Below the pieces are notes generated by a model. That model was not told the origin of the DNA and did no database searches. It saw nothing but the letters and a program-made list of their open reading frames with translations. Source: an uncultured Clostridia bacterium (GTDB lineage Bacteria > Bacillota > Limnochordia > Darwinibacteriales > Darwinibacteriaceae). From it: a stretch of DNA of 64,000 nt. Shown one piece after another: positions 6,796 to 47,352 of this stretch. The DNA lies in the NCBI GenBank assembly GCA_900018335.1, contig FIZK01000006.1, forward strand, positions 5,576 to 69,575, given 5' to 3'. Every line of letters starts with the position of its first letter. The first letter of the stretch is position 1. The position numbers were made by a program, and so were the translations under genes.

Positions 6796-8820
6796 TTATT
6801 GATTGAGGAAAGGTATGTTCTGCCACCATGGCTGGGAACAGCGGGGAGAGTATTCCGTTGGTTCCGTCCCAGCGATAAAGATTTCCCTTCTGGTTTCTTC
6901 AGGTGGCAGATTGCAGTTGTCCCGAACCAGCAGACCGGTCTTGGTGTCGATGAGGATGCCTTCCACCAGGCCGCTGGGCTTCGGGAAGTCCCTCACCGGC
7001 GTGTTCTTCAGGGCTTCTTTCATGAAGTTGGCCCAAATCGTAGCCGCATTCCACGACCCGTAGATGACTCCTTGGTAAACCATGCGTTTTGGGGCATCTT
7101 CTCCGAACCAGACGCCCGCCACCAAATCAGGGGTGTAGCCCATGAACCAAGCGTCCTGATAGTCGGAATGCGTACCCGTTTTGCCCGCCGCGGGGCGGCC
7201 AATGTTAGCGTTGCGGCCGGTCCCCCGTTCGATTACTCCGCGGAGCAGATCAGTCATGATGTAACTGGTCGGTTCGCTGAGCACCACTTCATAGCGGGGC
7301 GTATGCTCGTAGAGGACATTGCCCTGGGAGTCGGTTACCCGCCAGATGGCAAAAGGCTCAGACTTGATGCCTTGGTTGGCCAGGACACCGTAGGCCGTTG
7401 CCAGCTCCAGAAGGGATACTCCCCTAGTCATACCGCCCAGCGCCAAGGGGGCCAGGCCAATATCGTTTACCCTTCCTTGTTCCACAAAGGTGGTAATACC
7501 CATCTTTTTGGCATAGTCAATTACAGTTTGCGGTCCTAGTTGATCCACCACTTGGGCAGCTACCACGTTGAGGGAATCTTCCAGGGCTTCCCGCACGGTG
7601 ATGGGCCCGGCAAAGGTTTCGTAGTAGTTGCGCGGGCTCCAGGTCTCCCCAGTGACCAGCTTAAATTCGGTGGGTTCGTCAACGTATACCGTGGCCGGCG
7701 TTATCCCCCTATCGATGGCCGCGGTATAGGCGAACACCTTAATGGCTGAACCTGGAGAACGCAGGGCCTGTACACTGCGGTTGAAGCTGTCTTCGCCCCG
7801 TCCGCCAACCATCACCCGGATCTCACCCGTCTGGGGCACCATGGCCAGCACAGCTCCCTGTGGTTGGGTCAAATCTCCCTCATGGGACCGGTTCACGGGC
7901 AGGCCTTCCAGCAAGGCTTTTTCTGCGGCCTTCTGCATATCCAAATCGAGGGTGGTATATACATGCAGCCCGCCGTTGAAGACCATGTCCTCACCGTACA
8001 TGTCAACGAGTTGGCCTGTCACATAGTCTACGAAGTAACGGGCCTGCACCACCCTGGACTGACGCTCGGCCAGAACCAAGGGCTCGGCTTTGGCTGCCGC
8101 TGCCTCCGCGGCCGTGATGAAGCCCACCTCCTGCATGCGGCTGAGCACGAAATTCCGCCTTTCCACGGCAATATCTGGATTGACGAAAGGCGAGTAGCGG
8201 GTGGGCCAGCGAATTACTCCGGCGATGAGTGCCGCTTCACTCAAGGTCAGATCCTTGGCTGATTTGCCGAAAAACGCCTTTGCTCCTGCTTCTATGCCAT
8301 AGAGACCGTGGTTGAGATAGAACTCGTTTAGGTAAGCCTCTAGAATCTCGTCTTTGGAGTATTTCCGCTCAATCTGCACTGCCCAAAGGAACTCTTCCAG
8401 CTTGCGCATGATGGTCTTCTTTTGGGTTAGAAACACGTTGCGGGCCAGCTGCATGGTGATGGTTCCGCCACCTTGGGCAAAAGACCACTCCTTCAGGTTC
8501 ACTAGGATGGCCCGTCCAAAGGCAATGAAGTTAATACCGTGGTGGTTGTAGAACTGGTCGTCCTCAATGGCGATCACGGCATTTTTTACATGATCGGGCA
8601 GTTCGTTGATGTTCACGGGGATGCGGTTCTGTGTGTATAGATCCGTGATTAATCGTCCGTTGATGTCATAGATGTAAGTAGTGAAGTTCTGGCGGATATT
8701 GACTTGGTCGAGGCTGGGAGCACTGCCCAAATAGGCTGAGACTATCCCTGCAAAGGCGCCCAACAAGGTGGATCCTAGAATTACTAGTATGTATATGGCT
8801 GCGGTCTTTTTTTTCACCAC
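6796..8820 (-). CDS. ponA: class A penicillin-binding protein 1A (transglycosylase/transpeptidase)
   Basis: 674 aa. N-terminal TM, a GT51 motif (EDDQFYNHHGINF; RKLEE), and transpeptidase motifs (SxxK as SAIK, and KTGT). Confidence 0.85.
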   Translation of the reverse strand: MVKKKTAAIYILVILGSTLLGAFAGIVSAYLGSAPSLDQVNIRQNFTTYIYDINGRLITDLYTQNRIPVNINELPDHVKNAVIAIEDDQFYNHHGINFIAFGRAILVNLKEWSFAQGGGTITMQLARNVFLTQKKTIMRKLEEFLWAVQIERKYSKDEILEAYLNEFYLNHGLYGIEAGAKAFFGKSAKDLTLSEAALIAGVIRWPTRYSPFVNPDIAVERRNFVLSRMQEVGFITAAEAAAAKAEPLVLAERQSRVVQARYFVDYVTGQLVDMYGEDMVFNGGLHVYTTLDLDMQKAAEKALLEGLPVNRSHEGDLTQPQGAVLAMVPQTGEIRVMVGGRGEDSFNRSVQALRSPGSAIKVFAYTAAIDRGITPATVYVDEPTEFKLVTGETWSPRNYYETFAGPITVREALEDSLNVVAAQVVDQLGPQTVIDYAKKMGITTFVEQGRVNDIGLAPLALGGMTRGVSLLELATAYGVLANQGIKSEPFAIWRVTDSQGNVLYEHTPRYEVVLSEPTSYIMTDLLRGVIERGTGRNANIGRPAAGKTGTHSDYQDAWFMGYTPDLVAGVWFGEDAPKRMVYQGVIYGSWNAATIWANFMKEALKNTPVRDFPKPSGLVEGILIDTKTGLLVRDNCNLPPEETRREIFIAGTEPTEYSPRCSQPWWQNIPFLNQ

Positions 8821-8936
8821 GACACACCCCCGCGGGATTATTCCAGGACTATTATAACATATATTTTCGCCACTTAATCCCTATCCCCTAGGGGTGCCGC
8901 AGGAAGTTTGCCGGCACTTGAGCGAGGTGAGTGTCC

Positions 8937-9623
8937 GTGATAAACTGGCAAGGGAAGGTAAAGCTGACCTGGCGCACCTATGCAGGGTTGATCCTTTTTG
9001 TCCTGGTCCTGTTTGCGGTGGTCGCCTTGATGATTGTGGAAGTCCGCTTGGCCCCGGTTCTGCATACCTGGGCCCACACCAAGGCCGTGGGCTTGGCCAC
9101 AACAGCCATCAATCTGGCTGTGGAGGAGGTCATGGCTGGCACGCTGGACAGCACCGCCCTGGCCAAGCTGATCCGGGATGGCGACGGCAGTCTGAAGGGT
9201 GTGCAGTACGACATGGGTGCAGTAAACCGCGTGAGCAGCCAGGCTTCCCAGTTGATCTTGAAGAACTTGGAGGATATGGGTCAGCAGGCTTTTGCCATTC
9301 CCCTGGGCCAGCTGACGGGGTTGCGTTTCCTGGCCGCCTGGGGCCCAGACATTCCCGTGCGGATGGTACCCGTAGGCGCCCTCACAGCCACGCCCATGGC
9401 CAGTTTTCAGAGCGCGGGTTTGAACCAGACCTGGCATCGGGTGCTTTTGGATATTGAGGTAATGATGCGGGTGGTGGTACCGCTTTTGGCGGAGGAAATC
9501 GCGGTGTCAGCCAGGGTCCCCATTGTGGAAGAGATTTTCATCGGTGATGTTCCCAGCTGGTACTTTGCCGGTCAGGAGAATCTCACCATCCAAGAGGGCC
9601 TCTTGGAGTTTCCGTTGAATTGA
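8937..9623 (+). CDS. yunB: sporulation protein YunB
   Basis: The ORF opens at GTG 8931; GTG 8937 has better Shine-Dalgarno spacing. N-terminal TM and YunB-family conservation; divergent from the PBP1A gene. Confidence 0.7.
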   Translation: MINWQGKVKLTWRTYAGLILFVLVLFAVVALMIVEVRLAPVLHTWAHTKAVGLATTAINLAVEEVMAGTLDSTALAKLIRDGDGSLKGVQYDMGAVNRVSSQASQLILKNLEDMGQQAFAIPLGQLTGLRFLAAWGPDIPVRMVPVGALTATPMASFQSAGLNQTWHRVLLDIEVMMRVVVPLLAEEIAVSARVPIVEEIFIGDVPSWYFAGQENLTIQEGLLEFPLN

Positions 9624-9632
9624 GGGTAGCCG

Positions 9633-10439
9633 ATGCTGCGTTACAATCACAGCTTAGTGGAACGAAAGTGGATAGAGTTCGTAAAGCAAGGACAACAAGC
9701 CGGTGAGGAGCTGCCCCGGGCATACACCGTACTGGTTCCTGGCGATGGGGACGGTGTGGACCTGGAAAACGCCAGGCTGTTGGTGCTCACCGACTTTTTT
9801 GCCGCTCTCGCTTGGGGGAGGGGCTTCGTCCACTGTTTTGCCGGGAGCGGAGATAGACTTGTCAGCGTCATGGCTCGCCTAGGAGTTGCGGCTGAGCCTG
9901 GCCAGATGGGCGGCAGCTGCCATTTGGCCGTGGTACCACGGGACTTCCCGCACCTGGGCAGGCATCTGGACTGCGGGCAGGTTATCTTCAGCGGCCGTCA
10001 TCTGGGGGGAATGGCGCTGGGTCCTCTGCTCGCCGATGTTGGCGGAGATGCCCTGCGCATCTACTTTCTTTTCCAGGGCCCCCCGGAGCGTGACTATGCG
10101 TTCAATTGGCACGGTCTGGTGAGCGCCCACCGTTTTGTGCAGCGAGTGTGGCGCCTGGCCCAGAACCTGCATGGGGGGCGTGTGAACCCCGTTGAGGAGA
10201 GCCGTTTGCAGGATTTGGCCGCAGAGGTTCAAAAGCGCGCGCTGCAGCGGAAGCCCCACACTGCCCTGGCAGCTATCATGGGCTATCTGAAAGTCAAAAT
10301 CGCCCTCTCCCCAGATGAGGTGAGGGCGTTGGCTCGGCTGCTTGAGCCGTTTGCTCCCTTTTTGAGCGCGGAGCTAGCTGATTTGCTGGCGTCGATCGAG
10401 AATGATGATGATGGGCAGGGTTACCAGGCAGATGGCTAA
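9633..10439 (+). CDS. degenerate leucyl-tRNA synthetase-derived ORF (268 aa); likely a leuS remnant or pseudogene lacking the catalytic core
   Basis: The N-terminus MLRYNHSLVERKW resembles the LeuRS start. The central block GGDALRIYFLFQGPPERDYAFNWHGLVSAHRFVQRVWRL matches the LeuRS block GADTLRLY..GP....W...G..GA.RFL.RVW. HTALAAIMGYL...LEPFAPFLSAEL matches the LeuRS anticodon-binding region. HIGH and KMSKS motifs are absent, and the tail runs 66 nt into convergent lgt. Confidence 0.5.
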   Translation: MLRYNHSLVERKWIEFVKQGQQAGEELPRAYTVLVPGDGDGVDLENARLLVLTDFFAALAWGRGFVHCFAGSGDRLVSVMARLGVAAEPGQMGGSCHLAVVPRDFPHLGRHLDCGQVIFSGRHLGGMALGPLLADVGGDALRIYFLFQGPPERDYAFNWHGLVSAHRFVQRVWRLAQNLHGGRVNPVEESRLQDLAAEVQKRALQRKPHTALAAIMGYLKVKIALSPDEVRALARLLEPFAPFLSAELADLLASIENDDDGQGYQADG

Positions 10440-11108
10440 GGCGATGATTTGGCTCAGTACAAAGGGGCCGTAGAGCTGGCTGTGCTGCCGCAGGAAATCA
10501 AGGAAAAACCGCACTAGGGAATGGATGAACAGCGTGCGGAAAAAGGCGTAACCGTGATACTTGGGTTTGGCGGCCCATCTCCAGGCAAAGGGCAGGATGA
10601 CCAGGGCCGCGGCTACTTCATAGAGCTGAGTGGGGTGTACAGGGCCCAGGCTGGCGGGGAATTCCACACCCCAGGGCAGATCGGCGGGCGGCCCGTATAG
10701 CTCGCCGTTGAGGAAGTTGCCCAGCCGGATGAAGATGTGGCCCACGGGCAGAATGGGTGCCCCCACATCCGCCAGCTGCCAGTAACGCAGCTTGTGCCGG
10801 CGCACATAGAAGATGCCGATCACCATAATGGTGATGATGGCCCCCTGCGAAGACATGCCGCCCCGGGAGAAGATCTCCACCGGATTCTCCAGGAAATAAC
10901 GCCAATTGGGCAAGACCGCCCCTAGACGGCTGCCCACAAGCCCAGAAAAAGCGCAGAGGAAGTACAGGTTTTCCACCAGCTGCCAGTCCAGGCCATGCAG
11001 TTTGCTGAAGTGACGGGCTATGTAATAGGCCGAGATAAAGGTGCAGGCCATCAGGATTCCATACCAATAAATGTCCAGTGAACCGATACTGAATGCTATT
11101 GGAGCCAC
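10374..11108 (-). CDS. lgt: prolipoprotein diacylglyceryl transferase
   Basis: Lgt signature (YWYGILMA...GNFLNGELYG...HPTQLYE). The ORF extends to a TTG at 11159, but GTG at 11108 with a GAGGTGG Shine-Dalgarno matches the Bacillus Lgt N-terminus (PIAF...). Confidence 0.8.
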   Translation of the reverse strand: MAPIAFSIGSLDIYWYGILMACTFISAYYIARHFSKLHGLDWQLVENLYFLCAFSGLVGSRLGAVLPNWRYFLENPVEIFSRGGMSSQGAIITIMVIGIFYVRRHKLRYWQLADVGAPILPVGHIFIRLGNFLNGELYGPPADLPWGVEFPASLGPVHPTQLYEVAAALVILPFAWRWAAKPKYHGYAFFRTLFIHSLVRFFLDFLRQHSQLYGPFVLSQIIALAICLVTLPIIIILDRRQQIS

Positions 11109-11186
11109 AGCGACCACCTCGCGAACTCTGATAGAGGCATATTCAACTCCCGTATCCAAAAACCTGCTCCCATGGGAGGATTAGAC

Positions 11187-12260
11187 ATGAAGAGAATTGT
11201 GTTAACCGGAGGCGGAACCGCGGGGCACGTTACGCCGAACCTAGCCCTAGTTCCTCGCCTGCAGTCAAAAGGATGGGAAATCCATTACATTGGCACCCAC
11301 GACGGCATTGAAAGGGAACTGATCGGCTCTGAGCTGCCCTATTACCCCATCAGCGCGGGGAAACTCAGGCGCTACTTCGACTTGAAGAACCTGAGCGATC
11401 CCCTGCGGGTTGTCAAGGGGATCTTTGATGCCTATGGCCATCTCAGGCGCATTAAGCCCGCCGTTGTGTTCAGTAAAGGGGGCTTCGTGGCGGTCCCCGT
11501 AACCTTGGCAGCCTGGCTTCTGCGTATCCCAGTCATCCTGCATGAGTCTGATCTGACTCCTGGCTTGGCCAACAAGCTGTGCGTGCCGTTTGCCAAAGTA
11601 CTGTGTGTAAACTTTCCAGATTCGGTTCAGTACCTGAAGGGTAAGGCCTCTGAAAAGGTAGTGGTGACGGGCACGCCCATTCGGGCCGAGCTGTTGGAGG
11701 GATCCCGGGAGCAGGGGTTGAAGATTTGCGGGTTTTCCAGCGGACTTCCCGTCCTTTTAGTCATGGGAGGTAGTTTAGGATCTGCGGTTTTGAACCAGAC
11801 TATAAGGGATAACCTGGCTGAACTGACCAGAAGCTATCAGATTGTCCATCTCTGCGGCACTGGCAATCTGGCCCCCGAGATCAACAACCACCGCTATTTC
11901 CAATTGGAATATGCCCGGGAGGAGCTGCCCCATCTGCTGGCGGCGGCAGATATGGTGCTGTCCAGGGCAGGAGCTAATGCCATCGTTGAGCTGGCCGCCC
12001 TAGCTAAGCCCAACATCCTGGTTCCCCTTTCAAGGCAGGCCAGCCGGGGAGATCAGATTCTCAATGCTGCTTCCTTCGCCCGCCAGGGATTCAGTCTGGT
12101 CATCCAGGAAGAGGACCTAAGCGGCCGGACTTTGATTGAGCACCTGGCTTTGCTGCAGAAGGAACGGCGCAGGTTCGTTGAGGCCATGCAAGGATCGCCC
12201 ATCAACGATGGGACTGGCAAGATCATGGCCCTCATTGAGGAAGCGGCCCGGCGAAAATAG
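11187..12260 (+). CDS. murG: undecaprenyldiphospho-muramoylpentapeptide beta-N-acetylglucosaminyltransferase (MurG, GT28)
   Basis: GGGTAGHVTPNLAL N-terminal G-loop and a C-terminal DQILNA motif typical of MurG. ATG 11187 follows a GGGAGGA Shine-Dalgarno. The gene lies outside the dcw cluster. Confidence 0.75.
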   Translation: MKRIVLTGGGTAGHVTPNLALVPRLQSKGWEIHYIGTHDGIERELIGSELPYYPISAGKLRRYFDLKNLSDPLRVVKGIFDAYGHLRRIKPAVVFSKGGFVAVPVTLAAWLLRIPVILHESDLTPGLANKLCVPFAKVLCVNFPDSVQYLKGKASEKVVVTGTPIRAELLEGSREQGLKICGFSSGLPVLLVMGGSLGSAVLNQTIRDNLAELTRSYQIVHLCGTGNLAPEINNHRYFQLEYAREELPHLLAAADMVLSRAGANAIVELAALAKPNILVPLSRQASRGDQILNAASFARQGFSLVIQEEDLSGRTLIEHLALLQKERRRFVEAMQGSPINDGTGKIMALIEEAARRK

Positions 12261-12320
12261 TTGCGGGCGCAAGCAAATTATGGTAAGATGGAAACACATC
12301 AGAAGATGGGAGTGACTCTC

Positions 12321-12932
12321 ATGTCCATTAAGCTTGCCGTGATCTATTACAGTTCCACTGGGACCAACTACCAACTGGCCCAATGGGCCAAAGAGGGTGC
12401 AGAGGAACTTGGTGCGGAAGTAAGAGTGCTCAAAGTGCCGGAGCTCGCTCCTCAAGCTGCTATTGATTCTAATCCCGCTTGGAAAGCGCATCACGATGCT
12501 ACCCAAAATATACCCGAAGTCTCCCTGGCCGATCTAGAATGGGCTGACGCCATCATCTTTAGCGTGCCCACCCGTTTTGGCAACATGGCTGCCCAGATGC
12601 GCCAATTCCTAGATACCACCGGTGGTTTGTGGTTCCGTGGCAAACTAGTGAACAAAGTGGTCAGCGCCATGACCTCTGCCCAGAACCCCCATGGAGGCCA
12701 AGAGGCCACCATCCTATCGCTCTACACCACCATGTACCATTGGGGTGCCATTGTGGTGGCGCCGGGCTATACTGACCAGTCCGTATATGTGGGCGGGGGC
12801 AACCCTTACGGTACCAGCGTTACGGTGGATCAGGAAGGAAAAATGGTGGAAGACGTGGAAGGTGCGGTGAAACACCAGGCTAGACGTACCATCACGGTGG
12901 CCAAGTGGCTTAAGCAGGGTAGAGGAGAATAG
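12321..12932 (+). CDS. wrbA: NAD(P)H:quinone oxidoreductase, WrbA-type flavodoxin-like protein
   Basis: MSIKLAVIYYSSTGTNYQLA flavodoxin-like N-terminus and WrbA conservation. ATG 12321 with GGGAG Shine-Dalgarno; the ORF caller's 12261 start is an upstream extension. Confidence 0.75.
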   Translation: MSIKLAVIYYSSTGTNYQLAQWAKEGAEELGAEVRVLKVPELAPQAAIDSNPAWKAHHDATQNIPEVSLADLEWADAIIFSVPTRFGNMAAQMRQFLDTTGGLWFRGKLVNKVVSAMTSAQNPHGGQEATILSLYTTMYHWGAIVVAPGYTDQSVYVGGGNPYGTSVTVDQEGKMVEDVEGAVKHQARRTITVAKWLKQGRGE

Positions 12933-18381: not shown

Positions 18382-19260
18382 GTGAATCTGCAAGAGATGA
18401 TCTTAAAGCTGCAGGCCTATTGGGCTGAGCAAGGGTGCATCATTTATCAGCCCTATGATCTAGAAGTCGGTGCTGGGACCATGTCGCCAGCAACTTTTTT
18501 GAAAGCGTTGGGGCCCGAGCCTTGGAATGTGGCTTACGTTCAGCCCAGCAGGCGTCCCACTGACGGCCGCTACGGCGAGAACCCCAACAGGGTGCAGCAC
18601 TACTATCAGTTTCAAGTGATTCTCAAGCCGTCACCCGATGATGTGCAGGACATTTATCTAAGGAGCCTGGAAGCGCTGGGCATAGATTTGCTCAAGCATG
18701 ATGTGCGCTTTGTGGAAGATGACTGGGAATCTCCCACCTTAGGGGCTTGGGGCCTGGGCTGGGAAGTATGGCTGGATGGCATGGAAATTACGCAGTTCAC
18801 CTATTTCCAGCAGGTGGGCGGCATAGATGTGAAGCCCGTGTCTGCCGAGATCACCTATGGTGTGGAAAGACTGGCCATGTTTATCCAAGGAGTGGATTCC
18901 ATCTTCGACTTAGTGTGGGTTGACGGGGTCACCTACGGCGATGTCTTCCTCCAAAACGAAGTGGAGTATTCCAAACACAACTTCGAGGCGGCGGACACTG
19001 AGAAGCTGTTTACCCTCTTCGATTTATACGAGGATGAAGCTAAGAGGCTGATCCAGCTTGGGCTGGTGCTTCCGGGGTACGATTATGTCCTTAAGTGCTC
19101 CCACACCTTTAACCTCTTGGACGCCCGGGGCGCCCTCAGCGTGAGTGAACGGACTCGCTTCATCGGCCGCGTCAGGGCCTTAGCCCGGCTGGCAGCCCAG
19201 GGCTATCTGGCTGAGCGGGAGAGGTTGGGCTTTCCACTTCTGAAGGGAGGAGCTGTCTAG
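18382..19260 (+). CDS. glyQ: glycine--tRNA ligase alpha subunit
   Basis: [19 protein letters not shown]...; highly conserved GlyQ; 292 aa; GTG start. Confidence 0.95.
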
Positions 19261-21324
19261 ATGCAGGATCTTTTGCTGGAACTAGGGTTTGAAGAACTGC
19301 CGGCTCGTTTTATTGAGCAGGCTCTCAAACAGCTCTCAGAAGCAATTACCGCTAAGCTGACCCAGGAGCGTTTAGCCTTTGGGCAGGTCAGCCAGTTCGG
19401 CACGCCCCGCCGTTTGGCTGTCCTGGTGGAACAGCTCCAGGAGCAGCAAGAAGATCTCGTGGAAGAGGTGAAGGGACCGCCCCTCAACCTGGCCCGGGAC
19501 GAACAGGGCAATTGGACCAAGGCGGGCTTGGGATTTTTGCGTTCGCAAGGAGCCGACGAGAAGGATGTGCTAATCAAATCGATCCAGGGCGCTGATTACA
19601 TGTTTATCAGGAAAGAAGTGCGGGGCCAAAAGACCTCCGCACTGCTCAAACCGCTGCTGGAAGAAGTCATCGCCAATCTGAGCTTTCCTAAGAACATGCG
19701 CTGGGGAGATTACGATCTGCGCTACGCTAGGCCGCTGAGGTGGATCGTGGCCCTGTTTGGCAGCGAGGTAATCCCCCTGGAGGTGGGACCGCTCACGGCC
19801 GGCCAGATCACCTTCGGGCACCGGCAGTTGAGTTCCGGCCCCGTGGTGATTGAGGCGCCCACGGCTTACGCCGCGTCTTTGGAGAAGCACTACGTTATTG
19901 TGGATGCCCAGGAGCGCCGCTCCGCGATCTGGCAGCAGATTCAGGATCTGGCACGCAGTCAAGGAGCTAATGTACAAGAAGATGAGCGTCTGCTCAAGGA
20001 AGTAACTAACCTTGTGGAATATCCCACCGCCTTCCAGGGCCATTTCTCGGAAGAGTATCTCGCCGTGCCCGCGGAGGTTTTGATTACTTCCATGAAAGAA
20101 CATCAGCGCTATTTCCCCCTCCACGATGCCGCTGGCAAGCTCAAGGCCAGTTTCATCGGGGTGCGCAATGGCGCCGATAATCATCTGGGTTTGGTGATTA
20201 AGGGCAATGAAAAGGTACTCGCGGCACGGCTGTCCGATGCCAAGTTCTTTTATGAAGAAGACTTGAAAACGAGGCTTGTGGATCACCTGCCCAAGCTGGA
20301 GCAGGTGGTGTTCCAAGAGCGCCTCGGGTCCATGGGCGACAAGGTGCGGCGTTTGGAAAGACTCACAGGTACGTTGGCGGAACTGTTGGGCCATGCAGAA
20401 CACAAACAGACTGCCCTGAGAACCGCCCGCTTGGCCAAATGCGACCTGGTAACTCAGATGGTTTATGAATTCCCAGAACTGCAGGGAATAATGGGCGAAA
20501 AGTATGCTTTGGCCCAGGGTGAAGAGCCGGCAGTGGCCGCAGGTATTAGGGAGCACTACCTGCCCCGTTTCGCGGGGGACGTACTGCCAGAAACAGTAGA
20601 AGGAACTCTGGTGAGCCTCGCGGACAAACTGGACAACTTAGTGGGTTATTTTGCTGTGGGTAAGATTCCCACTGGGTCTCAGGATCCCTTTGCCCTGCGC
20701 CGCCAGGCCCAAGGCGTCGTGCAGATTTTGCGCAGGGCAGGCTATGATCTAGCTCTGAGCGAGCTGATCAGCGCCGCCGCGGCGGGTTACTCCGAGCTGA
20801 GTTGGGAGGAAGCAACGGGCAGGGCACTGGTGGAGTTTCTCCTGGCCCGCTTGAGAGTGATTCTCCTGGAGCAGGATTACAGCTACGATACCATCGATGC
20901 GGTCCTGGCCGGGGATGACGAGCGCATCCCCAGCCTCGAAAGGAAGGTGCGGGCCCTTGCTGAGTTCCGCGAGGAAGAGATCTTTGCTGACTTGATCACC
21001 GGCTTTGAACGGGTGGCCAACCTGGCAGCCAAAGGGAGAGGAGCCCAGCTGGAACCCAGCGCGCTACAGCCTGCCGACGTACAGTTTCAGCAGGCCCTGC
21101 AGGAAGCAGAGCAGGACTGTCTGCCCTTGGCCTCTGAAGGCAACTATCGAGGGCTTTTGCACCGTCTCGCGGAGTTCCGCGCCCGGGTTGATCTCTTCTT
21201 TGAGCAGGTCATGATCATGGATGAGGATCCCACAGTGCGCGGCAATCGGCTGGCGCTGCTGAACCAAGCCCTGGACTTGTATGGATTGTGTGGTGATTTG
21301 CACCTAGTTGTTGTGAATAAGTAA
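19261..21324 (+). CDS. glyS: glycine--tRNA ligase beta subunit
   Basis: 687 aa starting immediately after the glyQ stop; GlyS conservation. Confidence 0.9.
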   Translation: MQDLLLELGFEELPARFIEQALKQLSEAITAKLTQERLAFGQVSQFGTPRRLAVLVEQLQEQQEDLVEEVKGPPLNLARDEQGNWTKAGLGFLRSQGADEKDVLIKSIQGADYMFIRKEVRGQKTSALLKPLLEEVIANLSFPKNMRWGDYDLRYARPLRWIVALFGSEVIPLEVGPLTAGQITFGHRQLSSGPVVIEAPTAYAASLEKHYVIVDAQERRSAIWQQIQDLARSQGANVQEDERLLKEVTNLVEYPTAFQGHFSEEYLAVPAEVLITSMKEHQRYFPLHDAAGKLKASFIGVRNGADNHLGLVIKGNEKVLAARLSDAKFFYEEDLKTRLVDHLPKLEQVVFQERLGSMGDKVRRLERLTGTLAELLGHAEHKQTALRTARLAKCDLVTQMVYEFPELQGIMGEKYALAQGEEPAVAAGIREHYLPRFAGDVLPETVEGTLVSLADKLDNLVGYFAVGKIPTGSQDPFALRRQAQGVVQILRRAGYDLALSELISAAAAGYSELSWEEATGRALVEFLLARLRVILLEQDYSYDTIDAVLAGDDERIPSLERKVRALAEFREEEIFADLITGFERVANLAAKGRGAQLEPSALQPADVQFQQALQEAEQDCLPLASEGNYRGLLHRLAEFRARVDLFFEQVMIMDEDPTVRGNRLALLNQALDLYGLCGDLHLVVVNK

Positions 21325-21461
21325 AGAAGCGGGGCATGGGAAGGAGAACACGACGGAATAAAGAATAAGTTCTGTTGGTTATTCAGCCAATTATTTCCGC
21401 ACTTTAAGACATGTTCCCCCCTGGGGAATCATAGAGTAAGAAACGTAGAAGGAGGATGCGA

Positions 21462-24092
21462 ATGAGCACCAAGTGGGTTTACTTCTTTGGCGATGGACAA
21501 ACAGAGGGCCAGCAGGGCAACAGGAACCTCGTTGGTGGTAAAGGCGCCAACTTGGCAGAAATGGTGTCCCTGGGAATTCCTGTACCCCCGGGATTTACCA
21601 TTACCACGGAAGCCTGCACCGCTTTTTATGCCAACAATGAACAGTGGGTAGAAGGCCTGGAAGAACAGGTAATGGAGAACCTCGCAAAACTAGAAAAGTC
21701 AATGGGGGCTAAGCTCGGCGACGCGGAGAATCCGCTGCTTGTTTCCGTACGTTCCGGGGCCCGGGTATCCATGCCTGGCATGATGGACACGGTTTTGAAC
21801 CTTGGCTTAAATGATGTCACCGTGGAAGCGCTGGCCAAGAAATCGGGGAACCCCCGTTTTGCTTGGGACTCGTACCGTCGTTTTATCCACATGTACGGTG
21901 ATGTGGTCATGGGTGTTGACCACGAGCTGTTTGAAGCAGCCATTGCCAAAAAACGCGCAGATGAGGGCGTAGAGCTGGACAATGAGTTGAGCGTGGAAGC
22001 CCTCAAGGATTTGGTTAAGGAGTATAAGGCAATTGTCCAAAAGTCCGTAGGGACTCTGTTCCCCGATGACCCCTATGAGCAGCTGCGGGGAGCCATTGAT
22101 GCGGTCTTCCGTTCCTGGAACGGTGCGCGGGCCATCCGCTACCGCCAGATCAACCACATCCCGCACGATTGGGGTACAGCTGTAAACGTCCAGGTTATGG
22201 TGTTCGGCAACATGGGCGACAATTCCGGTACAGGCGTAGCCTTCACCCGGGATCCTTCCACGGGAGAGAACGTATTCTACGGCGAGTACCTGATGAACGC
22301 CCAGGGCGAAGACGTTGTGGCGGGAATCCGTACGCCCAACCCCATCTCCGAGCTCAAGAAGGGTATGCCTGAGATCTACGCAGAGCTGGAGAGGATTTAC
22401 AAGCTCTTAGAAAACCACTATAAGGATATGCAGGATATCGAGTTCACCATCCAGGAGGGCAAACTGTACCTTCTGCAAACCCGCACAGGTAAGCGGACTG
22501 CCACGGCAGCCGTACGCATTGCCGTGGAAATGGTGGAAGAGGGACTTATTGACAAGCAGACCGCTGTACTGCGGGTCGAGCCCGAACAGCTGGATCAGCT
22601 TCTGCACCCCATGATCGATCCCAAGGCGAAGTACGATGTGATCGCCACTGGCTTGCCCGCTTCCCCGGGTGCAGCAGCAGGCCGCATTGTGTTCACTGCG
22701 GACGAGGCTGAGCGCTGGTATGAGCGGGGCGAGAAGGTGATCTTGGTCCGCAACGAGACCTCGCCAGAGGATATTGGCGGCATGGACGTGGCGGAAGGCA
22801 TTCTCACCGCCCGCGGCGGTATGACGTCCCACGCTGCAGTAGTTGCCCGCGGCATGGGTAAGTGCTGCGTAGCCGGATGCTCCGCTGCCCAAATCGATGA
22901 AGCGAAAAAGACCCTCACCTTTGGTGATACCGTGCTTAACGAAGGTGACTGGATCACCCTGAACGGTACGGCTGGAGAAGTGATTGTGGGTCAAGTGCCC
23001 ATGGTCGAGGCGCAGGTCAGCGGCAATTTGGACACGCTCCTCCACTGGGCTGATGAGTTCCGGGCGTTGGGGATCCGCACCAATGCAGATACTCCCCACG
23101 ACAGCCAGACCGCCCTGGACTTCGGTGCTGAAGGCATCGGACTGTGCAGAACTGAGCACATGTTCTTTGAAGGTGATCGCATCAGTGCCGTTCGCCAGAT
23201 GATTTTTGCGAAAGACCAAGCTGGCCGGGAAGCTGCCTTGACTAAGCTGCTGCCTTACCAGAAGGGCGACTTCAAGGAGATTTTCCGCACCATGCAGGGC
23301 AAACCTGTCACTGTCAGGTTGCTGGATCCGCCGCTGCATGAGTTTGTGCCCCAAGACGAGGCTACCATCACCAAGCTGGCCGGCGAGATGGGGATGACTG
23401 TGGAAGCCCTCAAGGCTCGCATTGAATCCCTGGAGGAGATCAACCCCATGCTGGGCCACCGCGGTGTGCGCCTTGGCGTGACCTATCCCGAGATCTACGC
23501 CATGCAGGCCCGGGCCATTTTTGAGGCCGCCGCCGAGCTCACCAAAGACGGCGTACAGGTCTTCCCAGAGGTTATGATTCCCCTGATCGGCACTCCTCAA
23601 GAGCTCAAGCTGATGAAGGATGTATGTGTAGAAGTGGCCGACGCGGTCCAGAAGGAGTTCGGCGTGGAGTTCCAGTACCTGGTGGGAACCATGATCGAGA
23701 TCCCCAGGGCCTGTGTTGTGGCTGATGAGATCGCTGCTGAGGCAGAGTTCTTCTCCTTCGGTACCAACGACCTCACGCAAATGTCCTTTGGTTACAGCCG
23801 AGACGATGCCGGCACCTTCCTGCCCCAGTACGTAGAGAAGGAAATCCTGGAGAGGGATCCCTTCCAGACCCTGGACCAGGTGGGTGTAGGGTACTTGGTA
23901 AAACTCGGCGTGGATAAGGGCCGTTCAGTAAAGCCGAACCTGAAGGTCGGTGTCTGCGGCGAACATGGTGGCGACCCGGCTTCCATCGACTTCTTCCACC
24001 GTGTTGGCCTTGATTACGTGAGCTGCTCGCCGTTCCGCGTGCCCATTGCCCGCTTGGCTGCAGCCCAGGCCAACATCCGCAATCCACGCTAA
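21462..24092 (+). CDS. ppdK: pyruvate, phosphate dikinase
   Basis: 878 aa with the PEP-utilizing catalytic His region GGMTSHAAVVARGMGKCCVAGC and PPDK-wide conservation. ATG 21462 sits 6 nt after GAAGGAGGA. Confidence 0.9.
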   Translation: MSTKWVYFFGDGQTEGQQGNRNLVGGKGANLAEMVSLGIPVPPGFTITTEACTAFYANNEQWVEGLEEQVMENLAKLEKSMGAKLGDAENPLLVSVRSGARVSMPGMMDTVLNLGLNDVTVEALAKKSGNPRFAWDSYRRFIHMYGDVVMGVDHELFEAAIAKKRADEGVELDNELSVEALKDLVKEYKAIVQKSVGTLFPDDPYEQLRGAIDAVFRSWNGARAIRYRQINHIPHDWGTAVNVQVMVFGNMGDNSGTGVAFTRDPSTGENVFYGEYLMNAQGEDVVAGIRTPNPISELKKGMPEIYAELERIYKLLENHYKDMQDIEFTIQEGKLYLLQTRTGKRTATAAVRIAVEMVEEGLIDKQTAVLRVEPEQLDQLLHPMIDPKAKYDVIATGLPASPGAAAGRIVFTADEAERWYERGEKVILVRNETSPEDIGGMDVAEGILTARGGMTSHAAVVARGMGKCCVAGCSAAQIDEAKKTLTFGDTVLNEGDWITLNGTAGEVIVGQVPMVEAQVSGNLDTLLHWADEFRALGIRTNADTPHDSQTALDFGAEGIGLCRTEHMFFEGDRISAVRQMIFAKDQAGREAALTKLLPYQKGDFKEIFRTMQGKPVTVRLLDPPLHEFVPQDEATITKLAGEMGMTVEALKARIESLEEINPMLGHRGVRLGVTYPEIYAMQARAIFEAAAELTKDGVQVFPEVMIPLIGTPQELKLMKDVCVEVADAVQKEFGVEFQYLVGTMIEIPRACVVADEIAAEAEFFSFGTNDLTQMSFGYSRDDAGTFLPQYVEKEILERDPFQTLDQVGVGYLVKLGVDKGRSVKPNLKVGVCGEHGGDPASIDFFHRVGLDYVSCSPFRVPIARLAAAQANIRNPR

Positions 24093-28148: not shown

Positions 28149-28224
<76 letters not shown>

Positions 28225-28310: not shown

Positions 28311-28669
28311 GACATGCTGAGTGAACCGGGTGATCGCGAAGGGTTGCCCTTTGAGGAAAGTCCGAGCTCCGCAGGGCAGGATGCTGGGTAACACCCAGTG
28401 GAGGCGACTCTAAGGCTAGTGCCACAGAAACATACCGCCCTGGTTGAGTTCTCTCTGCCAGGGTAAGGGTGAAACGGTGAGGTAAGAGCTCACCAGCGGT
28501 TAGGTGACTAATCGGCTAGGTAAACCCCATCCGGAGCAAGGTCAAATAGGAAAGGAGAGGCTGCCCGTCTCGTTTGACTTTCGGGTTGACCGCAGGAGGC
28601 TTTAGGCAACTAAAGTCCCAGATAGATGATCATCCACGACAGAACTCGGCTTATAGGTTCACTCAGACC
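28311..28669 (+). ncRNA. rnpB: RNase P RNA (type A bacterial)
   Basis: Universally conserved P4 strand GAGGAAAGTCCGAGCTCC, followed by GGGTAACACCCAGTGG, GGTGAAACGGTGAGGTAAGAGCTCACCAG, CCGGAGCAAGGTCAAATAGG and ACGACAGAACTCGGCTTATAGG. P1 pairs GCTGAGTGAACC with GGTTCACTCAG. Confidence 0.85.
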
Positions 28670-45070: not shown

Positions 45071-45135
45071 TTGCCCGCCCATGGAGGTAGGGTTTGGCGT
45101 CGCTGCGTAGAACATGGAAGGGAAGGGGTGAAGAT

Positions 45136-47352
45136 GTGAGCAGAAAACCTCGAGAGCGCAAGGATAGCGGGGTGAGAGCCAGGGAAGTGGGGGGCATCCT
45201 GCTTTTGGCTTTCTCCGTCTTTTGTCTGCTTTCTTTATACGTAGATACCACCGGCTGGGTTGGCAGCCCCGTGCGGTCTGTCCTGCGCATGTGTTTCGGG
45301 GATTTGGCCGTGTTGTTCGTCCTGCTTTTTGCGGTCATGGCCATTCAGCTGTTCCTGGGAAAAGGCAGAGCACTGTCCTGGCAGTCCCAGGTGGGTCTGC
45401 TCCTGCTCATTTTCTCGGTCACCTTGATCTTTCACATGCTCTACTACCAGGGCTATCAGTTTCCCCCGAGCTTGCGGGAGGAAATCAGCTACGGTATGAA
45501 AGGCGAAGGAGCTGGAGTGTTGGGTGCGGTGATCTTGACCCTGAGCTACAACGCCTTCGGCATCCACGGCTCCTACGTTTTGGTGGGTACTGCCGTCCTG
45601 CTGGGGATCATGCTCTTTTTCGAGATCTCCTTGATCGATCTCCTTCGCGGGTTCTTTGGCCTGCTGCGACGGGCGTTAAGCAGCTGGTGGCATGGTGGTG
45701 AAAAAGAAGCTAAACGCAAGCAAAAGAAGGAGCGCAAGGTAGAGCGCAAAGAGCGCAGGCGGAGGCGGCCCAAGGTGCAGGAGCCGCCCACCGAGCTAGA
45801 GCCTGCTGCGGCGGCGTCTCCGCCGGAGGCGATGCCCAGGCCCGTAAAGGCCAAGAAAAAAGAGCAAGCCAAGGCCGAACCTGACCCGGAAGGACAGTTG
45901 GAGCAGCTGGTGTTGAATTTGCCCGCTGCGGAGGGACAGAGCGAACACCGCCTGCCCCCCACACACTTGCTGCGCCGCAGCAACAGCAGATCTCGGAAGA
46001 CCAGCGGACTGCAGCGGGAACTGCTGGAGGAAACGCTGGCCAACTTCGGTATCGAGGCTAGGGTTGTAAATGTATCCCAGGGCCCGGTGGTTACCCGCTA
46101 TGAACTGCAGCCTGCGCCGGGGATTAAGGTCTCCAGGATCACTTCCCTGGCGGATGATCTCGCCCTCGCTTTGGCCGCTGAGGATGTGCGCATCGAAGCT
46201 CCGGTGCCCGGCAAGCCGGTTGTGGGCATAGAGGTCCCCAACAAAGAGACGGAAATGGTCTTGTTGAGAGATGTCTTGGAGAGTCCCGAGTTCGCGGGCC
46301 ATCCTTCTCCAGTTGCCCTAGCTTTGGGGAAGGATATAGCCGGCCAGCCAGTCATTGCCGACCTGAAGAAGTGGCTGCATGTGCTCATTGCCGGCGCCAC
46401 CGGGTCGGGTAAGAGCGTCTGTTTGAACTGCATTATTGCCTCCCTTTTGTTCCGCACCACTCCCGACATGGTCAAACTGCTCTTAGTGGACCCGAAAAGG
46501 GTGGAACTGTCCGTCTACGACGGCATCCCCCATCTGATCAGCCCTGTGGTTACCGATCCCAAGAAAGCGGCCATCGCGCTGCGTTGGGCAGTAGGGGAGA
46601 TGGAGCGCCGCTACGAACTCTTCGCCGAAGCGGGGGTACGCAATATTGAGATGTACCACGAATGGTCTAAGGAGGCCGGGGAAGGCGAGGAGCGGCCGGA
46701 GCACCTTCCGTATATCGTCGTCATCGTGGACGAGCTGGCCGATTTGATGATGGTGGCCGCGGCTGAAGTGGAAGACGCCATCTGCCGCTTGGCCCAAATG
46801 GCCAGGGCGGCGGGGATGTACTTGATCATCGCAACGCAGAGGCCATCAGTGGATGTGATCACCGGCCTGATCAAGGCCAACGTGCCTTCTAGGGTTTCCT
46901 TTGCCGTATCCAGTCAGGTGGATTCCCGAACCATCCTGGACATGGGCGGAGCGGAACGGCTCATTGGTAAGGGGGACATGCTTTACTACCCAATCGGAGC
47001 ATCTAAGCCCGTGCGGGCTCAGGGGGCCTGGATTTCAGATAAGGAAGTGGAGGCTGTTGTAAAATATTGGAAGGACCAGGGTGAGCCGGAGTACAGGGAA
47101 GAGATCGTGGAGGACGCTCCAGAGCTAACCCTGCGTGACGACGAGGAAGATGAGCTCTTGGAGGATGCCATTCGCCTCGTGGTGGAGAACGGCCAGGCTT
47201 CCATATCCATGCTCCAGCGGAGGTTCCGCATTGGCTACAGCCGAGCTGCGCGGCTCATAGATATGATGGAAGTTCGGGGCATTGTCGGTGGCTATCAAGG
47301 CAGCAAGCCGCGGGAGGTCTTGGTGGATAAAGCAGTTCTAGAAGAAAGGTGA
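45136..47352 (+). CDS. ftsK: DNA translocase FtsK/SpoIIIE
   Basis: N-terminal TM helices; K/R/E- and Pro/Ala-rich linker; motor domain with Walker A GATGSGKS, Walker [10 protein letters not shown] and a gamma domain. Start is uncertain (TTG 45094 or GTG 45136). Confidence 0.9.

What the first reader, a model, noticed from the sequence alone, without database searches (positions are those of the whole stretch)
9633..10439. Degenerate leucyl-tRNA synthetase-derived ORF wedged between yunB and lgt
The 268-aa ORF keeps recognisable LeuRS segments: the N-terminal MLRYNHSLVERKW; the block GGDALRIYFLFQGPPERDYAFNWHGLVSAHRFVQRVWRL; and the anticodon-binding-region block HTALAAIMGYL...LEPFAPFLSAEL. About 540 residues are missing, including the HIGH and KMSKS motifs; KMSKS is replaced by SGRHL. 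The frame stays open, there is a good Shine-Dalgarno (GAGGG, 6-nt spacer), and the tail runs 66 nt into convergent lgt. It is either a decaying leuS paralogue or a domesticated LeuRS-fold fragment. The same mechanism could have produced other remnants elsewhere in the genome.
Basis: partly seen in the sequence, partly recalled or inferred. Interest (0 to 1): 0.6.

Follow-up and report, generated by a model that had tools for sequence, protein, structure and literature searches.

The report
Shrunken leuS relic kept as gene
This 268-aa gene is what remains of the leucyl-tRNA synthetase gene that once sat at this spot; it has lost about two thirds of its length and all its catalytic motifs, yet every sampled species of one group of biogas-reactor bacteria still keeps it as an intact, folded protein, so it probably has a new, unknown job.

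Summary

It is not a lone decaying pseudogene. The same 248-269-aa ORF sits at the same position in at least 24 related genomes (Ca. Darwinibacteriales/MBA03). It is always intact, with dN/dS 0.10-0.28 and a confident AlphaFold model (pLDDT 88.6).

Sister lineages with the same gene order carry a full-length leuS (798-805 aa) exactly here, mostly behind a T-box leader. The ORF is therefore the in-situ remnant of the ancestral leuS, not an inserted copy. The T-box is gone and the ORF starts 9-17 nt after yunB.

Relative to yunB, its amino-acid rate is 1.7-9x, against 0.4-0.55x for the intact leuS. Constraint is much relaxed but not neutral.

The function is unknown. My best reading is a non-aminoacylating pseudo-synthetase co-expressed with the sporulation gene yunB. 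I could not locate the working leuS of these genomes. No LeuRS-derived mini-protein is listed in the 2022 review I consulted.

The parts
8931..9623 (+). yunB (sporulation protein YunB). It is the upstream gene, and the mini-ORF is tightly coupled to it.
   Evidence: TIGR02832 E 4.9e-44, above cutoff. The gap to the mini-ORF is 9-17 nt in all family loci.
9622..9626 (+). Shine-Dalgarno GAGGG, overlapping the yunB stop codon (9621-9623), 6 nt before the ATG.
   Evidence: Read directly from the sequence. Equivalent GAGG/GGAGG motifs occur upstream of the ORF in the other loci.
9633..10439 (+). The mini-LeuRS ORF (268 aa), the in-situ relic of the ancestral leuS.
   Evidence: The orthologous position holds full-length leuS in sister lineages.
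9642..9827 (+). Residues 4-65: remnant of the LeuRS N-terminal helix, first Rossmann strand and HIGH helix.
   Evidence: blastp to syntenic LeuRS L064 residues 4-71, E 1e-4. hhalign E 1.5e-4. Family-HMM N-terminal domain hits on LeuRS.
9759..9770 (+). D43-L44-E45-N46 at the position of the HIGH (HVGH) signature. E45 and N46 are invariant in the 33-sequence family alignment.
   Evidence: Alignments; invariants.
9984..10010 (+). Residues 118-126 (IFSGRHLGG): the position of the KMSKS loop, shortened and without lysines. G121 and R122 are invariant.
   Evidence: the register differs by a few residues between them; invariants.
9924..10433 (+). Residues 98-267: the last Rossmann strands, the stem-contact fold and the first helices of the anticodon-binding domain. 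These correspond to LeuRS about 553-729.
   Evidence: blastp to L064 LeuRS, E 6e-16, 31% identity. hhalign E 7e-19. TIGR00396.
10374..10439 (+). C-terminal tail read antisense through the 3' end of lgt. It is disordered in the model and variable in length between species.
   Evidence: Overlap. pLDDT is below 50 for residues 263-268. ORF ends vary from 248 to 269 aa. In L073 the full-length leuS stops 16 nt before lgt.
10374..11159 (-). lgt (prolipoprotein diacylglyceryl transferase), the convergent neighbour.
   Evidence: TIGR00544 E 3.2e-42, above cutoff.

Best explanation
The ORF is the in-situ remnant of the leuS gene that ancestrally lay between yunB and lgt.

In the stem lineage of Ca. 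Darwinibacteriales (MBA03/DTU010), leucyl-tRNA synthesis must have passed to another gene. This step is inferred; that gene was not located. The resident leuS then lost several things. It lost its T-box leader. It lost about 450-480 internal residues (CP1 editing, zinc and leucine-specific modules). It lost the C-terminal tRNA-binding domain of about 70-85 residues, together with the original stop codon, so the frame now runs into antisense lgt. It also lost the HIGH, KMSKS and FPYPSG leucine-pocket motifs.

What remains is a 250-270-aa protein. It still folds as the LeuRS Rossmann core plus stem-contact fold plus the first anticodon-domain helices. This is shown by prediction only.

It has been kept intact under purifying selection across the whole group. 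It is translationally coupled to, and presumably co-transcribed with, the sporulation gene yunB (inferred from spacing).

It cannot work as a canonical synthetase. The most likely mode of action (inferred, about 0.3-0.4) is as a non-catalytic pseudo-synthetase. It would bind a partner, whether RNA, protein or small ligand, through the remodelled former active-site face. That is where the family-specific invariant polar residues sit in the sequence: E45/N46, R103/D104 and G121/R122.
For: LeuRS homology by sequence and fold:
- TIGR00396 E 7e-12.
- hhalign E 1.7e-17 and 7e-19.
- Foldseek: the top 47 hits are all LeuRS.
- AF2 pLDDT 88.6, pTM 0.87.

In-situ origin:
- Collinear sister loci (U32 peptidase-mutS2-PBP1A-yunB-leuS-...-lgt-...-murG-desulfoferrodoxin) carry a full-length leuS at this position.
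- In L073 the order is yunB, 27 nt, leuS (805 aa), 16 nt, lgt.
- The family HMM scores syntenic LeuRS at 87-99 bits, against 66-76 bits for LeuRS of other phyla.
- T-box leaders precede leuS in L064 and L065. None is found in the window, and 9-17 nt leaves no room for one.

Retention:
- The ORF is intact at the same position in 21 species-level genomes.
- It is also present in 3 loci sampled through YunB rather than through the ORF.
- dN/dS is 0.10-0.28.
- 23 family-alignment columns are invariant.
- A stop-free frame arises in 1.5e-4 of shuffles.
- The ORF DNA is identical in 4 independent assemblies, and the exact protein occurs in 212 collection blocks.

Loss of synthetase features.
Against: - There are no expression data (RNA or peptide).
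- The protein evolves 1.7-9x faster than yunB, whereas intact leuS evolves 0.4-0.55x as fast as yunB. Constraint is weak.
- dS is near saturation for most pairs.
- Three database variants carry frameshifts (P0022, P0036, P0187). These could reflect strain-level loss or assembly errors.
- The working leuS of these genomes was not found.
- pI ranges from 5.2 to 9.4 across the family, which gives no consistent support for nucleic-acid binding.
- The location of the invariant residues in 3D was inferred from sequence position and secondary structure, not from coordinates.
- No sporulation-type promoter could be identified.
Confidence: 0.75

Rival explanations
1. Neutral decaying pseudogene: a leuS remnant on its way to deletion, open only by chance or recency.
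For: It evolves faster than all its neighbours. All catalytic motifs are gone. A few frameshifted variants exist in databases.
Against: The ORF is open, 248-269 aa, in all 24 related genomes, even though neighbour proteins have diverged to 59-72% identity. A stop-free frame is expected in 1.5e-4 of shuffles per genome. dN/dS is 0.10-0.28. The same motifs are invariant across the family. The AF2 fold is confident.
Confidence: 0.04
2. The ORF is kept for reasons other than its product's activity. Its translation may be needed for expression or stability of the yunB message. It may shield or regulate the convergent, overlapping lgt 3' end. Sequence constraint would then only reflect selection against a misfolding or toxic expressed product.
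For: There is tight translational coupling to yunB. A 3'-3' overlap with lgt is conserved in all loci. The protein evolves fast. Tang & Carter propose that deletion of CP1/ABD from motif-mutated LeuRS is selected because it reduces toxicity.
Against: A clean deletion would remove any toxicity and would be expected in at least some of 24 lineages. The invariant polar residues (E45, N46, R103, R122, D154) are not what fold maintenance alone predicts. In L073 yunB, leuS and lgt sit equally close without any overlap.
Confidence: 0.12
3. It is still a minimal, urzyme-like enzyme that activates leucine or another substrate, or acylates tRNA or a minihelix.
For: The Rossmann core is retained. Engineered and in-vivo-deleted LeuRS cores lacking CP1 and the ABD are reported active even with AVGA/AMSAS signatures (PMC9026127 listed). 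Family-specific invariant residues lie at the ends of the core strands.
Against: Both signatures are replaced, not just mutated: DLEN for HVGH, and a shortened lysine-free loop for KMSKS. The FPYPSG leucine-pocket motif is gone apart from one Pro. The C-terminal tRNA-binding domain is absent. No aaRS Pfam model reaches threshold in any of 33 members.
Confidence: 0.07
4. Sequencing or assembly artefact: a frameshifted or collapsed full-length leuS.
For: None was found.
Against: Only 807 nt lie between yunB and lgt. tblastn with full LeuRS finds nothing else in any frame. The ORF DNA is identical in four independent assemblies. The same architecture occurs in 24 genomes from different projects.
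Confidence: 0.01

Closest known systems
Canonical bacterial LeuRS (TIGR00396), specifically the yunB-linked leuS of the sister lineages (L064, L065, L068, L070, L073)
   Same: It occupies the same genomic position. It shares the N-terminal YNHxxxExKW helix, the Rossmann core, the DFG/YGADALR-GPPE stem-contact segment, and the NTA/HTA and PFAPH/PFAPF helices. Identity is 31-34% over the C-terminal half.
   Different: The mini-ORF lacks HIGH, KMSKS, FPYPSG, CP1 editing, the leucine-specific module, the C-terminal domain and the T-box leader. It is 268 aa rather than 798-805 aa, and scores 44 bits against a cutoff of 548.
LeuAC urzyme and the in-vivo LeuRS deletion variants (Tang & Carter, bioRxiv 10.1101/2025.04.05.647346; PMC9026127)
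   Same: CP1 is excised from a LeuRS whose two signature motifs are no longer wild type, leaving a small Rossmann-core protein. In the laboratory the deletions arise only when both signatures are mutated.
   Different: The urzymes are about 130 aa, also delete the whole anticodon-binding domain, keep recognisable signature positions (AVGA/AMSAS) and are reported catalytically active. The natural protein keeps the stem-contact fold and half of the ABD, has no recognisable signatures, and is a long-lived chromosomal gene family.
Non-aminoacylating or weakly active LeuRS duplicates: LeuRS-I of Sulfolobaceae and LeuRS2 of Natrialba magadii (review PMC9437257; PMC4005665)
   Same: These are LeuRS-derived proteins retained alongside a working LeuRS, with a suspected role outside translation.
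   Different: They are full-length duplicates. LeuRS-I still makes Leu-AMP and binds tRNA(Leu). Here the protein is one third of the length, lacks the motifs, and is the original locus copy rather than a duplicate.
Truncated aaRS paralogues with new functions (YadB/GluQRS, HisZ, PoxA; review PMC9437257)
   Same: These are free-standing aaRS-core proteins lacking tRNA anticodon recognition. They are conserved as separate genes.
   Different: They derive from GluRS, HisRS and LysRS. Except for HisZ they keep catalytic motifs and activate an amino acid. The review's table lists no such protein for LeuRS.
Mycoplasma mobile LeuRS (PDB 3ziu), a natural CP1-less LeuRS
   Different: M. mobile LeuRS is an active enzyme with HIGH/KMSKS and tRNA-binding domains (its structure contains Leu-AMS).

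Membership tests
Bacterial leucyl-tRNA synthetase (TIGR00396 / class Ia aaRS) | Whole-protein score above the curated family cutoff | tested here: not met
   44.2 bits against a cutoff of 548.4. No Pfam aaRS domain reaches its gathering score in any of 33 family members.
Bacterial leucyl-tRNA synthetase (TIGR00396 / class Ia aaRS) | HIGH (HxGH) signature | tested here: not met
   D43-L44-E45-N46 aligns to HVGH. The family consensus is xLEN.
Bacterial leucyl-tRNA synthetase (TIGR00396 / class Ia aaRS) | KMSKS signature loop | tested here: not met
   The loop is shortened by 3-7 residues and has no lysine. The consensus is CGRLL.
Bacterial leucyl-tRNA synthetase (TIGR00396 / class Ia aaRS) | CP1 editing domain (PF13603) and leucine-specific insertion | tested here: not met
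   LeuRS residues about 72-552 have no counterpart beyond a roughly 30-residue linker. PF13603 is present in the syntenic LeuRS and absent here.
Bacterial leucyl-tRNA synthetase (TIGR00396 / class Ia aaRS) | C-terminal tRNA-binding domain | tested here: not met
   The alignment ends at LeuRS residue about 729 of 798. The remaining tail is antisense lgt.
Bacterial leucyl-tRNA synthetase (TIGR00396 / class Ia aaRS) | Class I Rossmann core plus stem-contact fold plus helical anticodon-domain architecture | tested here: met
Bacterial leucyl-tRNA synthetase (TIGR00396 / class Ia aaRS) | Leucylation of tRNA(Leu) | not testable with these tools
   Needs biochemistry. The motif losses make it very unlikely.
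aaRS-derived pseudo-synthetase / aaRS-like paralogue (loose class: HisZ, LeuRS-I, etc.) | Homologous to an aaRS catalytic core but lacking the aminoacylation motifs | tested here: met
aaRS-derived pseudo-synthetase / aaRS-like paralogue (loose class: HisZ, LeuRS-I, etc.) | Conserved as an intact gene under purifying selection across species | tested here: met
   24 genomes with an intact ORF at the same locus; dN/dS 0.10-0.28.
aaRS-derived pseudo-synthetase / aaRS-like paralogue (loose class: HisZ, LeuRS-I, etc.) | Coexists with a canonical synthetase for the same amino acid in the same genome | not testable with these tools
   No leuS lies in the 64-kb window. No Darwinibacter-attributable LeuRS appears among the 120 best relatives of the syntenic LeuRS. 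Coexistence is expected from the essentiality of LeuRS.
LeuRS urzyme (LeuAC)-like minimal synthetase | CP1 removed, joining the two halves of the Rossmann fold | tested here: met
LeuRS urzyme (LeuAC)-like minimal synthetase | Anticodon-binding domain removed; about 130 aa; both signature segments retained; catalytically active | tested here: not met
   The protein is 268 aa and keeps the stem-contact fold and ABD helices (residues 129-260). The signatures are not retained. Activity was not tested.
Split (alpha/beta) LeuRS of the Aquifex type | Two genes that together supply a complete LeuRS with HIGH on one piece and KMSKS on the other | tested here: not met
   This single ORF contains remnants of both ends of LeuRS and neither motif. 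The description of the Aquifex enzyme is from my own knowledge.

The most novel reading that the evidence does not exclude
After the resident, essential leuS was functionally displaced (possibly by a xenologous LeuRS), it was whittled down in place to a CP1-less, motif-less LeuRS core. That core was recruited as a new yunB-coupled, sporulation-associated protein. This would be a natural, order-wide 'deconstruction' of a class I synthetase, parallel to the engineered LeuAC urzyme, with a new binding or sensing function, for example for tRNA(Leu), leucine-related ligands or a protein partner.
Probability: 0.4. Interest if true: 0.7.

Novelty: new variant of a known kind. Interest (0 to 1): 0.55.

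Why it matters
aaRS-derived proteins with new roles are known for several synthetases. The 2022 review I consulted (PMC9437257) lists none derived from LeuRS by truncation.

This case is also unusually well documented by comparative genomics. The full-length precursor sits at the orthologous position in sister lineages, so one can read off what was deleted (T-box, CP1, C-terminal domain, signature motifs) and what selection kept.

It is a natural counterpart to the laboratory finding that cells delete CP1 from LeuRS genes whose signatures are inactivated. It also shows that the class I core plus stem-contact fold can persist as a stable protein for a long evolutionary time, which bears on the urzyme model of synthetase origins.

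It implies a replacement of the essential leuS in Ca. Darwinibacteriales, an abundant but uncultured biogas-reactor lineage. It also gives a 'hypothetical protein' with no Pfam domain a defined ancestry.

Tried and rejected
- Pfam on the ORF and on all 33 family members: nothing above threshold.
- AFDB50 fold search: library unavailable.
- Within-species pN/pS: cluster variants differ by only 1-2 residues, and the ORF DNA is identical in four assemblies, so the test is uninformative.
- Promoter/terminator scan of 8700-11300: counts were close to shuffled expectation (1 promoter-like site against 1.2 expected; 5 terminator-like sites against 2.6 +/- 1.3). A hairpin at 9589-9607 inside the yunB 3' end has a poor T-run.
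- Search for a conserved sporulation-type promoter upstream of yunB: the strongest conserved element (TATTATAACATA) reads as a minus-strand extended -10 (TGtTATAAT), probably for the divergent PBP1A. The promoter type therefore stays unresolved.
- Charge/pI as a hint of RNA binding: pI 5.2-9.4, median about 7, not informative.
- Looking for the working leuS:
  - There is none in the window.
  - The 120 best relatives of the syntenic LeuRS include no entry named Darwinibacter or Limnochordia and none with the very high contig counts typical of this abundant organism. The five I looked up are all yunB-linked sister-clade genes.
  - The Darwinibacteriales paper has no held supplements and does not mention tRNA or sporulation.
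- Split-LeuRS and immunity-decoy ideas were considered and dropped, because both the motifs and the Leu-AMP pocket are absent.
Full report
**1. The observation**

GAGGG lies at 9622-9626, six bases before the ATG, and overlaps the TGA of the upstream gene.

The neighbours were identified with NCBIfam:
- PBP1A, 6796-8820 (-)
- yunB, 8931-9623 (+)
- lgt, 10374-11159 (-)
- murG, 11172-12260 (+)
- wrbA, 12261-12932 (+)

The ORF and lgt overlap tail to tail by 66 nt.

**2. Is it LeuRS-derived?**

Yes, by several independent measures.
- Pfam finds only a sub-threshold Anticodon_1 match (E 0.08).
- TIGR00396 (bacterial leuS) matches residues 132-254 to profile positions 619-760 with E 7.2e-12. The score is 44 bits, far below the family cutoff of 548.
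- phmmer against PDB sequences finds T. thermophilus, N. gonorrhoeae and E. coli LeuRS, with E 1e-5 to 8e-4.
- Profile-profile comparison of the family with a LeuRS alignment gives E 1.7e-17 for residues 131-256 and E 7e-19 for residues 85-268.
- The N-terminal third also aligns collinearly with the LeuRS N-terminus: hhalign E 1.5e-4, probability 51%, and blastp E 1e-4 to a syntenic LeuRS.

In these alignments D43-L44-E45-N46 stands where HVGH stands. Only one proline of FPYPSG survives. The KMSKS loop is shorter and lysine-free.

An AlphaFold2 model built on 33 homologues is confident (pLDDT 88.6, pTM 0.87).
- Foldseek's first 47 PDB hits are all LeuRS.

The whole protein is therefore a LeuRS core: N-terminal helix, Rossmann sheet, stem-contact fold and the first helices of the anticodon-binding domain.

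**3. Not a lone pseudogene**

A search of 5.8 billion proteins returned 35 full-length homologues of 249-272 aa at 41-64% identity. They are unnamed or annotated 'hypothetical', and none has a Pfam domain.

An exhaustive HMM search of 1.84 billion representatives found 23 proteins at E<=1e-30. After that the scores drop sharply to ordinary LeuRS C-terminal matches at about 1e-19. The family is small and sharply bounded.

The window protein is identical to NCBI MAG proteins labelled Limnochordia bacterium. It is one residue (V77A) from WP_461366043.1 of Candidatus Darwinibacter acetoxidans. That organism belongs to the MBA03/DTU010 lineage, which is abundant in anaerobic digesters (PMC12663870).

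A scan of one genome per GTDB species found 21 loci with the ORF.
- 19 of the 21 loci contain both flanks. All 19 share the order PBP1A(-)/yunB/ORF/lgt(-), with mutS2 upstream and murG downstream wherever the fetched DNA extends that far.
- The two short contigs, L016 and L017, begin inside or just before the ORF and show only ORF/lgt/murG.
- 20 of the 21 ORFs are complete and stop-free, at 248-268 aa. In L017 the contig starts at residue 83.
- In every locus that contains yunB, the ORF starts 9-17 nt after the yunB stop and is preceded by a Shine-Dalgarno sequence.

Those loci were found through the ORF itself. I therefore also sampled two divergent YunB homologues independently of the ORF. 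Both have the same 268-269-aa ORF, scoring 211-214 bits against the family HMM.

**4. Selection**

Pairwise NG86 dN/dS for the ORF is 0.10-0.28. In the least saturated pair (L006/L007, dS 0.81) the values are:

| Gene | dN/dS |
|---|---|
| mini-ORF | 0.25 |
| yunB | 0.04 |
| lgt | 0.06 |
| murG | 0.07 |
| PBP1A | 0.03 |

In the sister clade, intact leuS changes at 0.41-0.55 times the amino-acid rate of yunB. Here the ORF changes at 1.7-9 times that rate. Constraint has been strongly relaxed but not abolished.

Shuffles of the ORF contain 8.9 stops on average and are stop-free in 1.5e-4 of cases. The ORF DNA is identical in four independent assemblies, and the exact protein is recorded in 212 collection blocks.

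**5. Origin: the decisive comparison**

YunB homologues at 57% identity or less come from lineages in which the gene right after yunB is a bona fide, full-length leuS.

| Locus | What follows yunB |
|---|---|
| L062 | leuS cut by the contig end, yet 647 bits on TIGR00396 (cutoff 548) |
| L064, L065, L068, L070 | leuS, 798 aa |
| L073 | leuS, 805 aa |

L068 is collinear with the window over more than 15 kb: U32 peptidase, mutS2, PBP1A, yunB, leuS, BTAD regulator, lgt, two further genes, murG, desulfoferrodoxin.

In L073 the arrangement is yunB, 27 nt, leuS, 16 nt, convergent lgt. This is the exact precursor geometry.

L064 and L065 carry a T-box leader in front of leuS. The window has none, and there is no room for one.

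The family HMM scores these syntenic LeuRS proteins at 87-99 bits, against 66-76 bits for LeuRS from other phyla. Both an N-terminal and a C-terminal domain hit appear, in collinear order.

The ORF is therefore the positional descendant of the resident leuS, not a copy inserted here. Mapping to L064 LeuRS shows residues 4-65 matching 4-71 and residues 98-267 matching 553-729.
- About 450-480 internal residues are gone (CP1 and associated modules).
- The last roughly 70 residues (the tRNA-binding C-terminal domain) are gone, along with the original stop codon.
- This explains why the frame now runs into antisense lgt. The tail is disordered in the model and variable in length between species.

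**6. What it does**

*Shown:*
- It is a LeuRS-core protein family.
- It lacks every feature needed for canonical leucylation.
- It is kept intact under purifying selection.
- It sits immediately behind yunB.

*Inferred:*
- Co-transcription with yunB. This rests on spacing only. The consensus scans are at background level, and the conserved intergenic element looks like the divergent PBP1A promoter.
- A working LeuRS encoded elsewhere. This rests on the essentiality of LeuRS.

The 120 best relatives of the syntenic LeuRS contain nothing attributable to Darwinibacter. All five that I looked up are yunB-linked sister-clade genes. This hints that the working enzyme is not a close paralogue and could be a xenologue, but it does not prove it.

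The family-specific invariant polar residues lie where HIGH, the ends of the last core strands and the KMSKS loop used to be. They are E45/N46, R103/D104 and G121/R122. R153/D154/Y155 is invariant or nearly so in most members, but becomes KDL/RDL in the deepest branch. This suggests a remodelled, still-used face rather than random decay.

I commit to a non-catalytic pseudo-synthetase that acts by binding a partner and is expressed with yunB. The specific mechanism has a probability of only about 0.3-0.4. pI varies from 5.2 to 9.4, so RNA binding is not specifically supported.

The rivals are:
- retention for reasons unrelated to product activity, such as translation coupling, the lgt overlap or avoidance of a toxic product (0.12);
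- residual urzyme-like catalysis (0.07);
- neutral decay (0.04);
- artefact (0.01).

**7. Comparison with what is known**

The review of aaRS duplications (PMC9437257) lists LeuRS-I of Sulfolobaceae and LeuRS2 of Halobacteria. Both are full-length duplicates. It has no entry under LeuRS-like truncated proteins.

The nearest conceptual analogues are the engineered LeuAC urzyme and the report that E. coli deletes CP1 and the ABD from a plasmid LeuRS gene only when both signatures are mutated. The natural protein differs in three ways: it retains the stem-contact fold and half the ABD, it has no recognisable signatures, and it is a long-lived chromosomal family.

It fails the membership tests for LeuRS, urzyme and split LeuRS. 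It fits the loose class of aaRS-derived pseudo-synthetases.

**8. Verdict**

- Novelty: a new variant of a known kind.
- Interest is moderate (0.55). It is a clean natural experiment in synthetase deconstruction, with a probable leuS displacement behind it. There are no functional data, and the family is narrowly distributed in an uncultured lineage.

Noticed in passing
window 10374-10439, and the equivalent positions in L001-L021 and L075-L077: The convergent 3'-3' overlap between the mini-ORF and lgt (about 28-66 nt) is present in every family locus and leaves no intergenic space for terminators. In the precursor-like locus L073, leuS and lgt are 16 nt apart, with a hairpin spanning the lgt stop.
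   Followed up: partly
L064:4452-4673 and L064:4717-5943; L061:4578-5813: Some sister lineages carry tyrS, with its own T-box leader in L064, between PBP1A and yunB. yunB is there flanked by two synthetase genes. The window has no tyrS at that place.
   Followed up: partly
L073:4973-5001: In this sister lineage the full-length leuS starts only 27 nt after yunB, with no room for a T-box leader. This contrasts with L064 and L065, where a T-box is found. T-box loss can therefore precede, or occur independently of, gene reduction. L073 itself was not scanned with Rfam.
   Followed up: partly
window 8821-8930 (PBP1A-yunB intergenic region): Several elements are strongly conserved across about 20 genomes. 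ACACCCCCG is probably the PBP1A Shine-Dalgarno on the minus strand. TATTATAACATA reads as TGtTATAAT, an extended -10, on the minus strand. There is also a palindrome, CCCTAGGG. No yunB promoter could be assigned.
   Followed up: partly
window 12261-12932 compared with L068, L075 and L077: wrbA (NAD(P)H:quinone oxidoreductase) follows murG in the window and its close relatives. It is absent from the deep-branch family loci L075-L077 and from the sister clade. Conversely, a BTAD regulator, a radical-SAM (LAM_C) gene and an unknown 471-484-aa gene found near lgt in the sister clade are absent from all mini-ORF loci.
   Followed up: no
proteins P0022, P0036, P0187: Three database variants of the family carry apparent frameshifts, with an altered N- or C-terminal part. 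They may be assembly errors or strain-level pseudogenisation.
   Followed up: no
window 28149-28221 and 28318-28669: A tRNA gene and a class A bacterial RNase P RNA (307 bits) lie next to each other. They are the only Rfam matches above gathering score in the window.
   Followed up: no
window 9589-9607: A terminator-like hairpin (8-bp stem, TCCAAGAGGGCCTCTTGGA) lies inside the 3' end of yunB, just upstream of the mini-ORF start. Its T-run is poor. I did not check whether it is conserved or attenuates read-through into the ORF.
   Followed up: no
window 18382-21324, 21456-24092, 45094-47352: In this window I identified glyS (19261-21324; the adjacent 18382-19260 ORF is presumably glyQ but was not tested), pyruvate phosphate dikinase and FtsK. 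tblastn with a full LeuRS found no other LeuRS-like sequence anywhere in the window, and no scan for remnants of other synthetases was run.
   Followed up: partly
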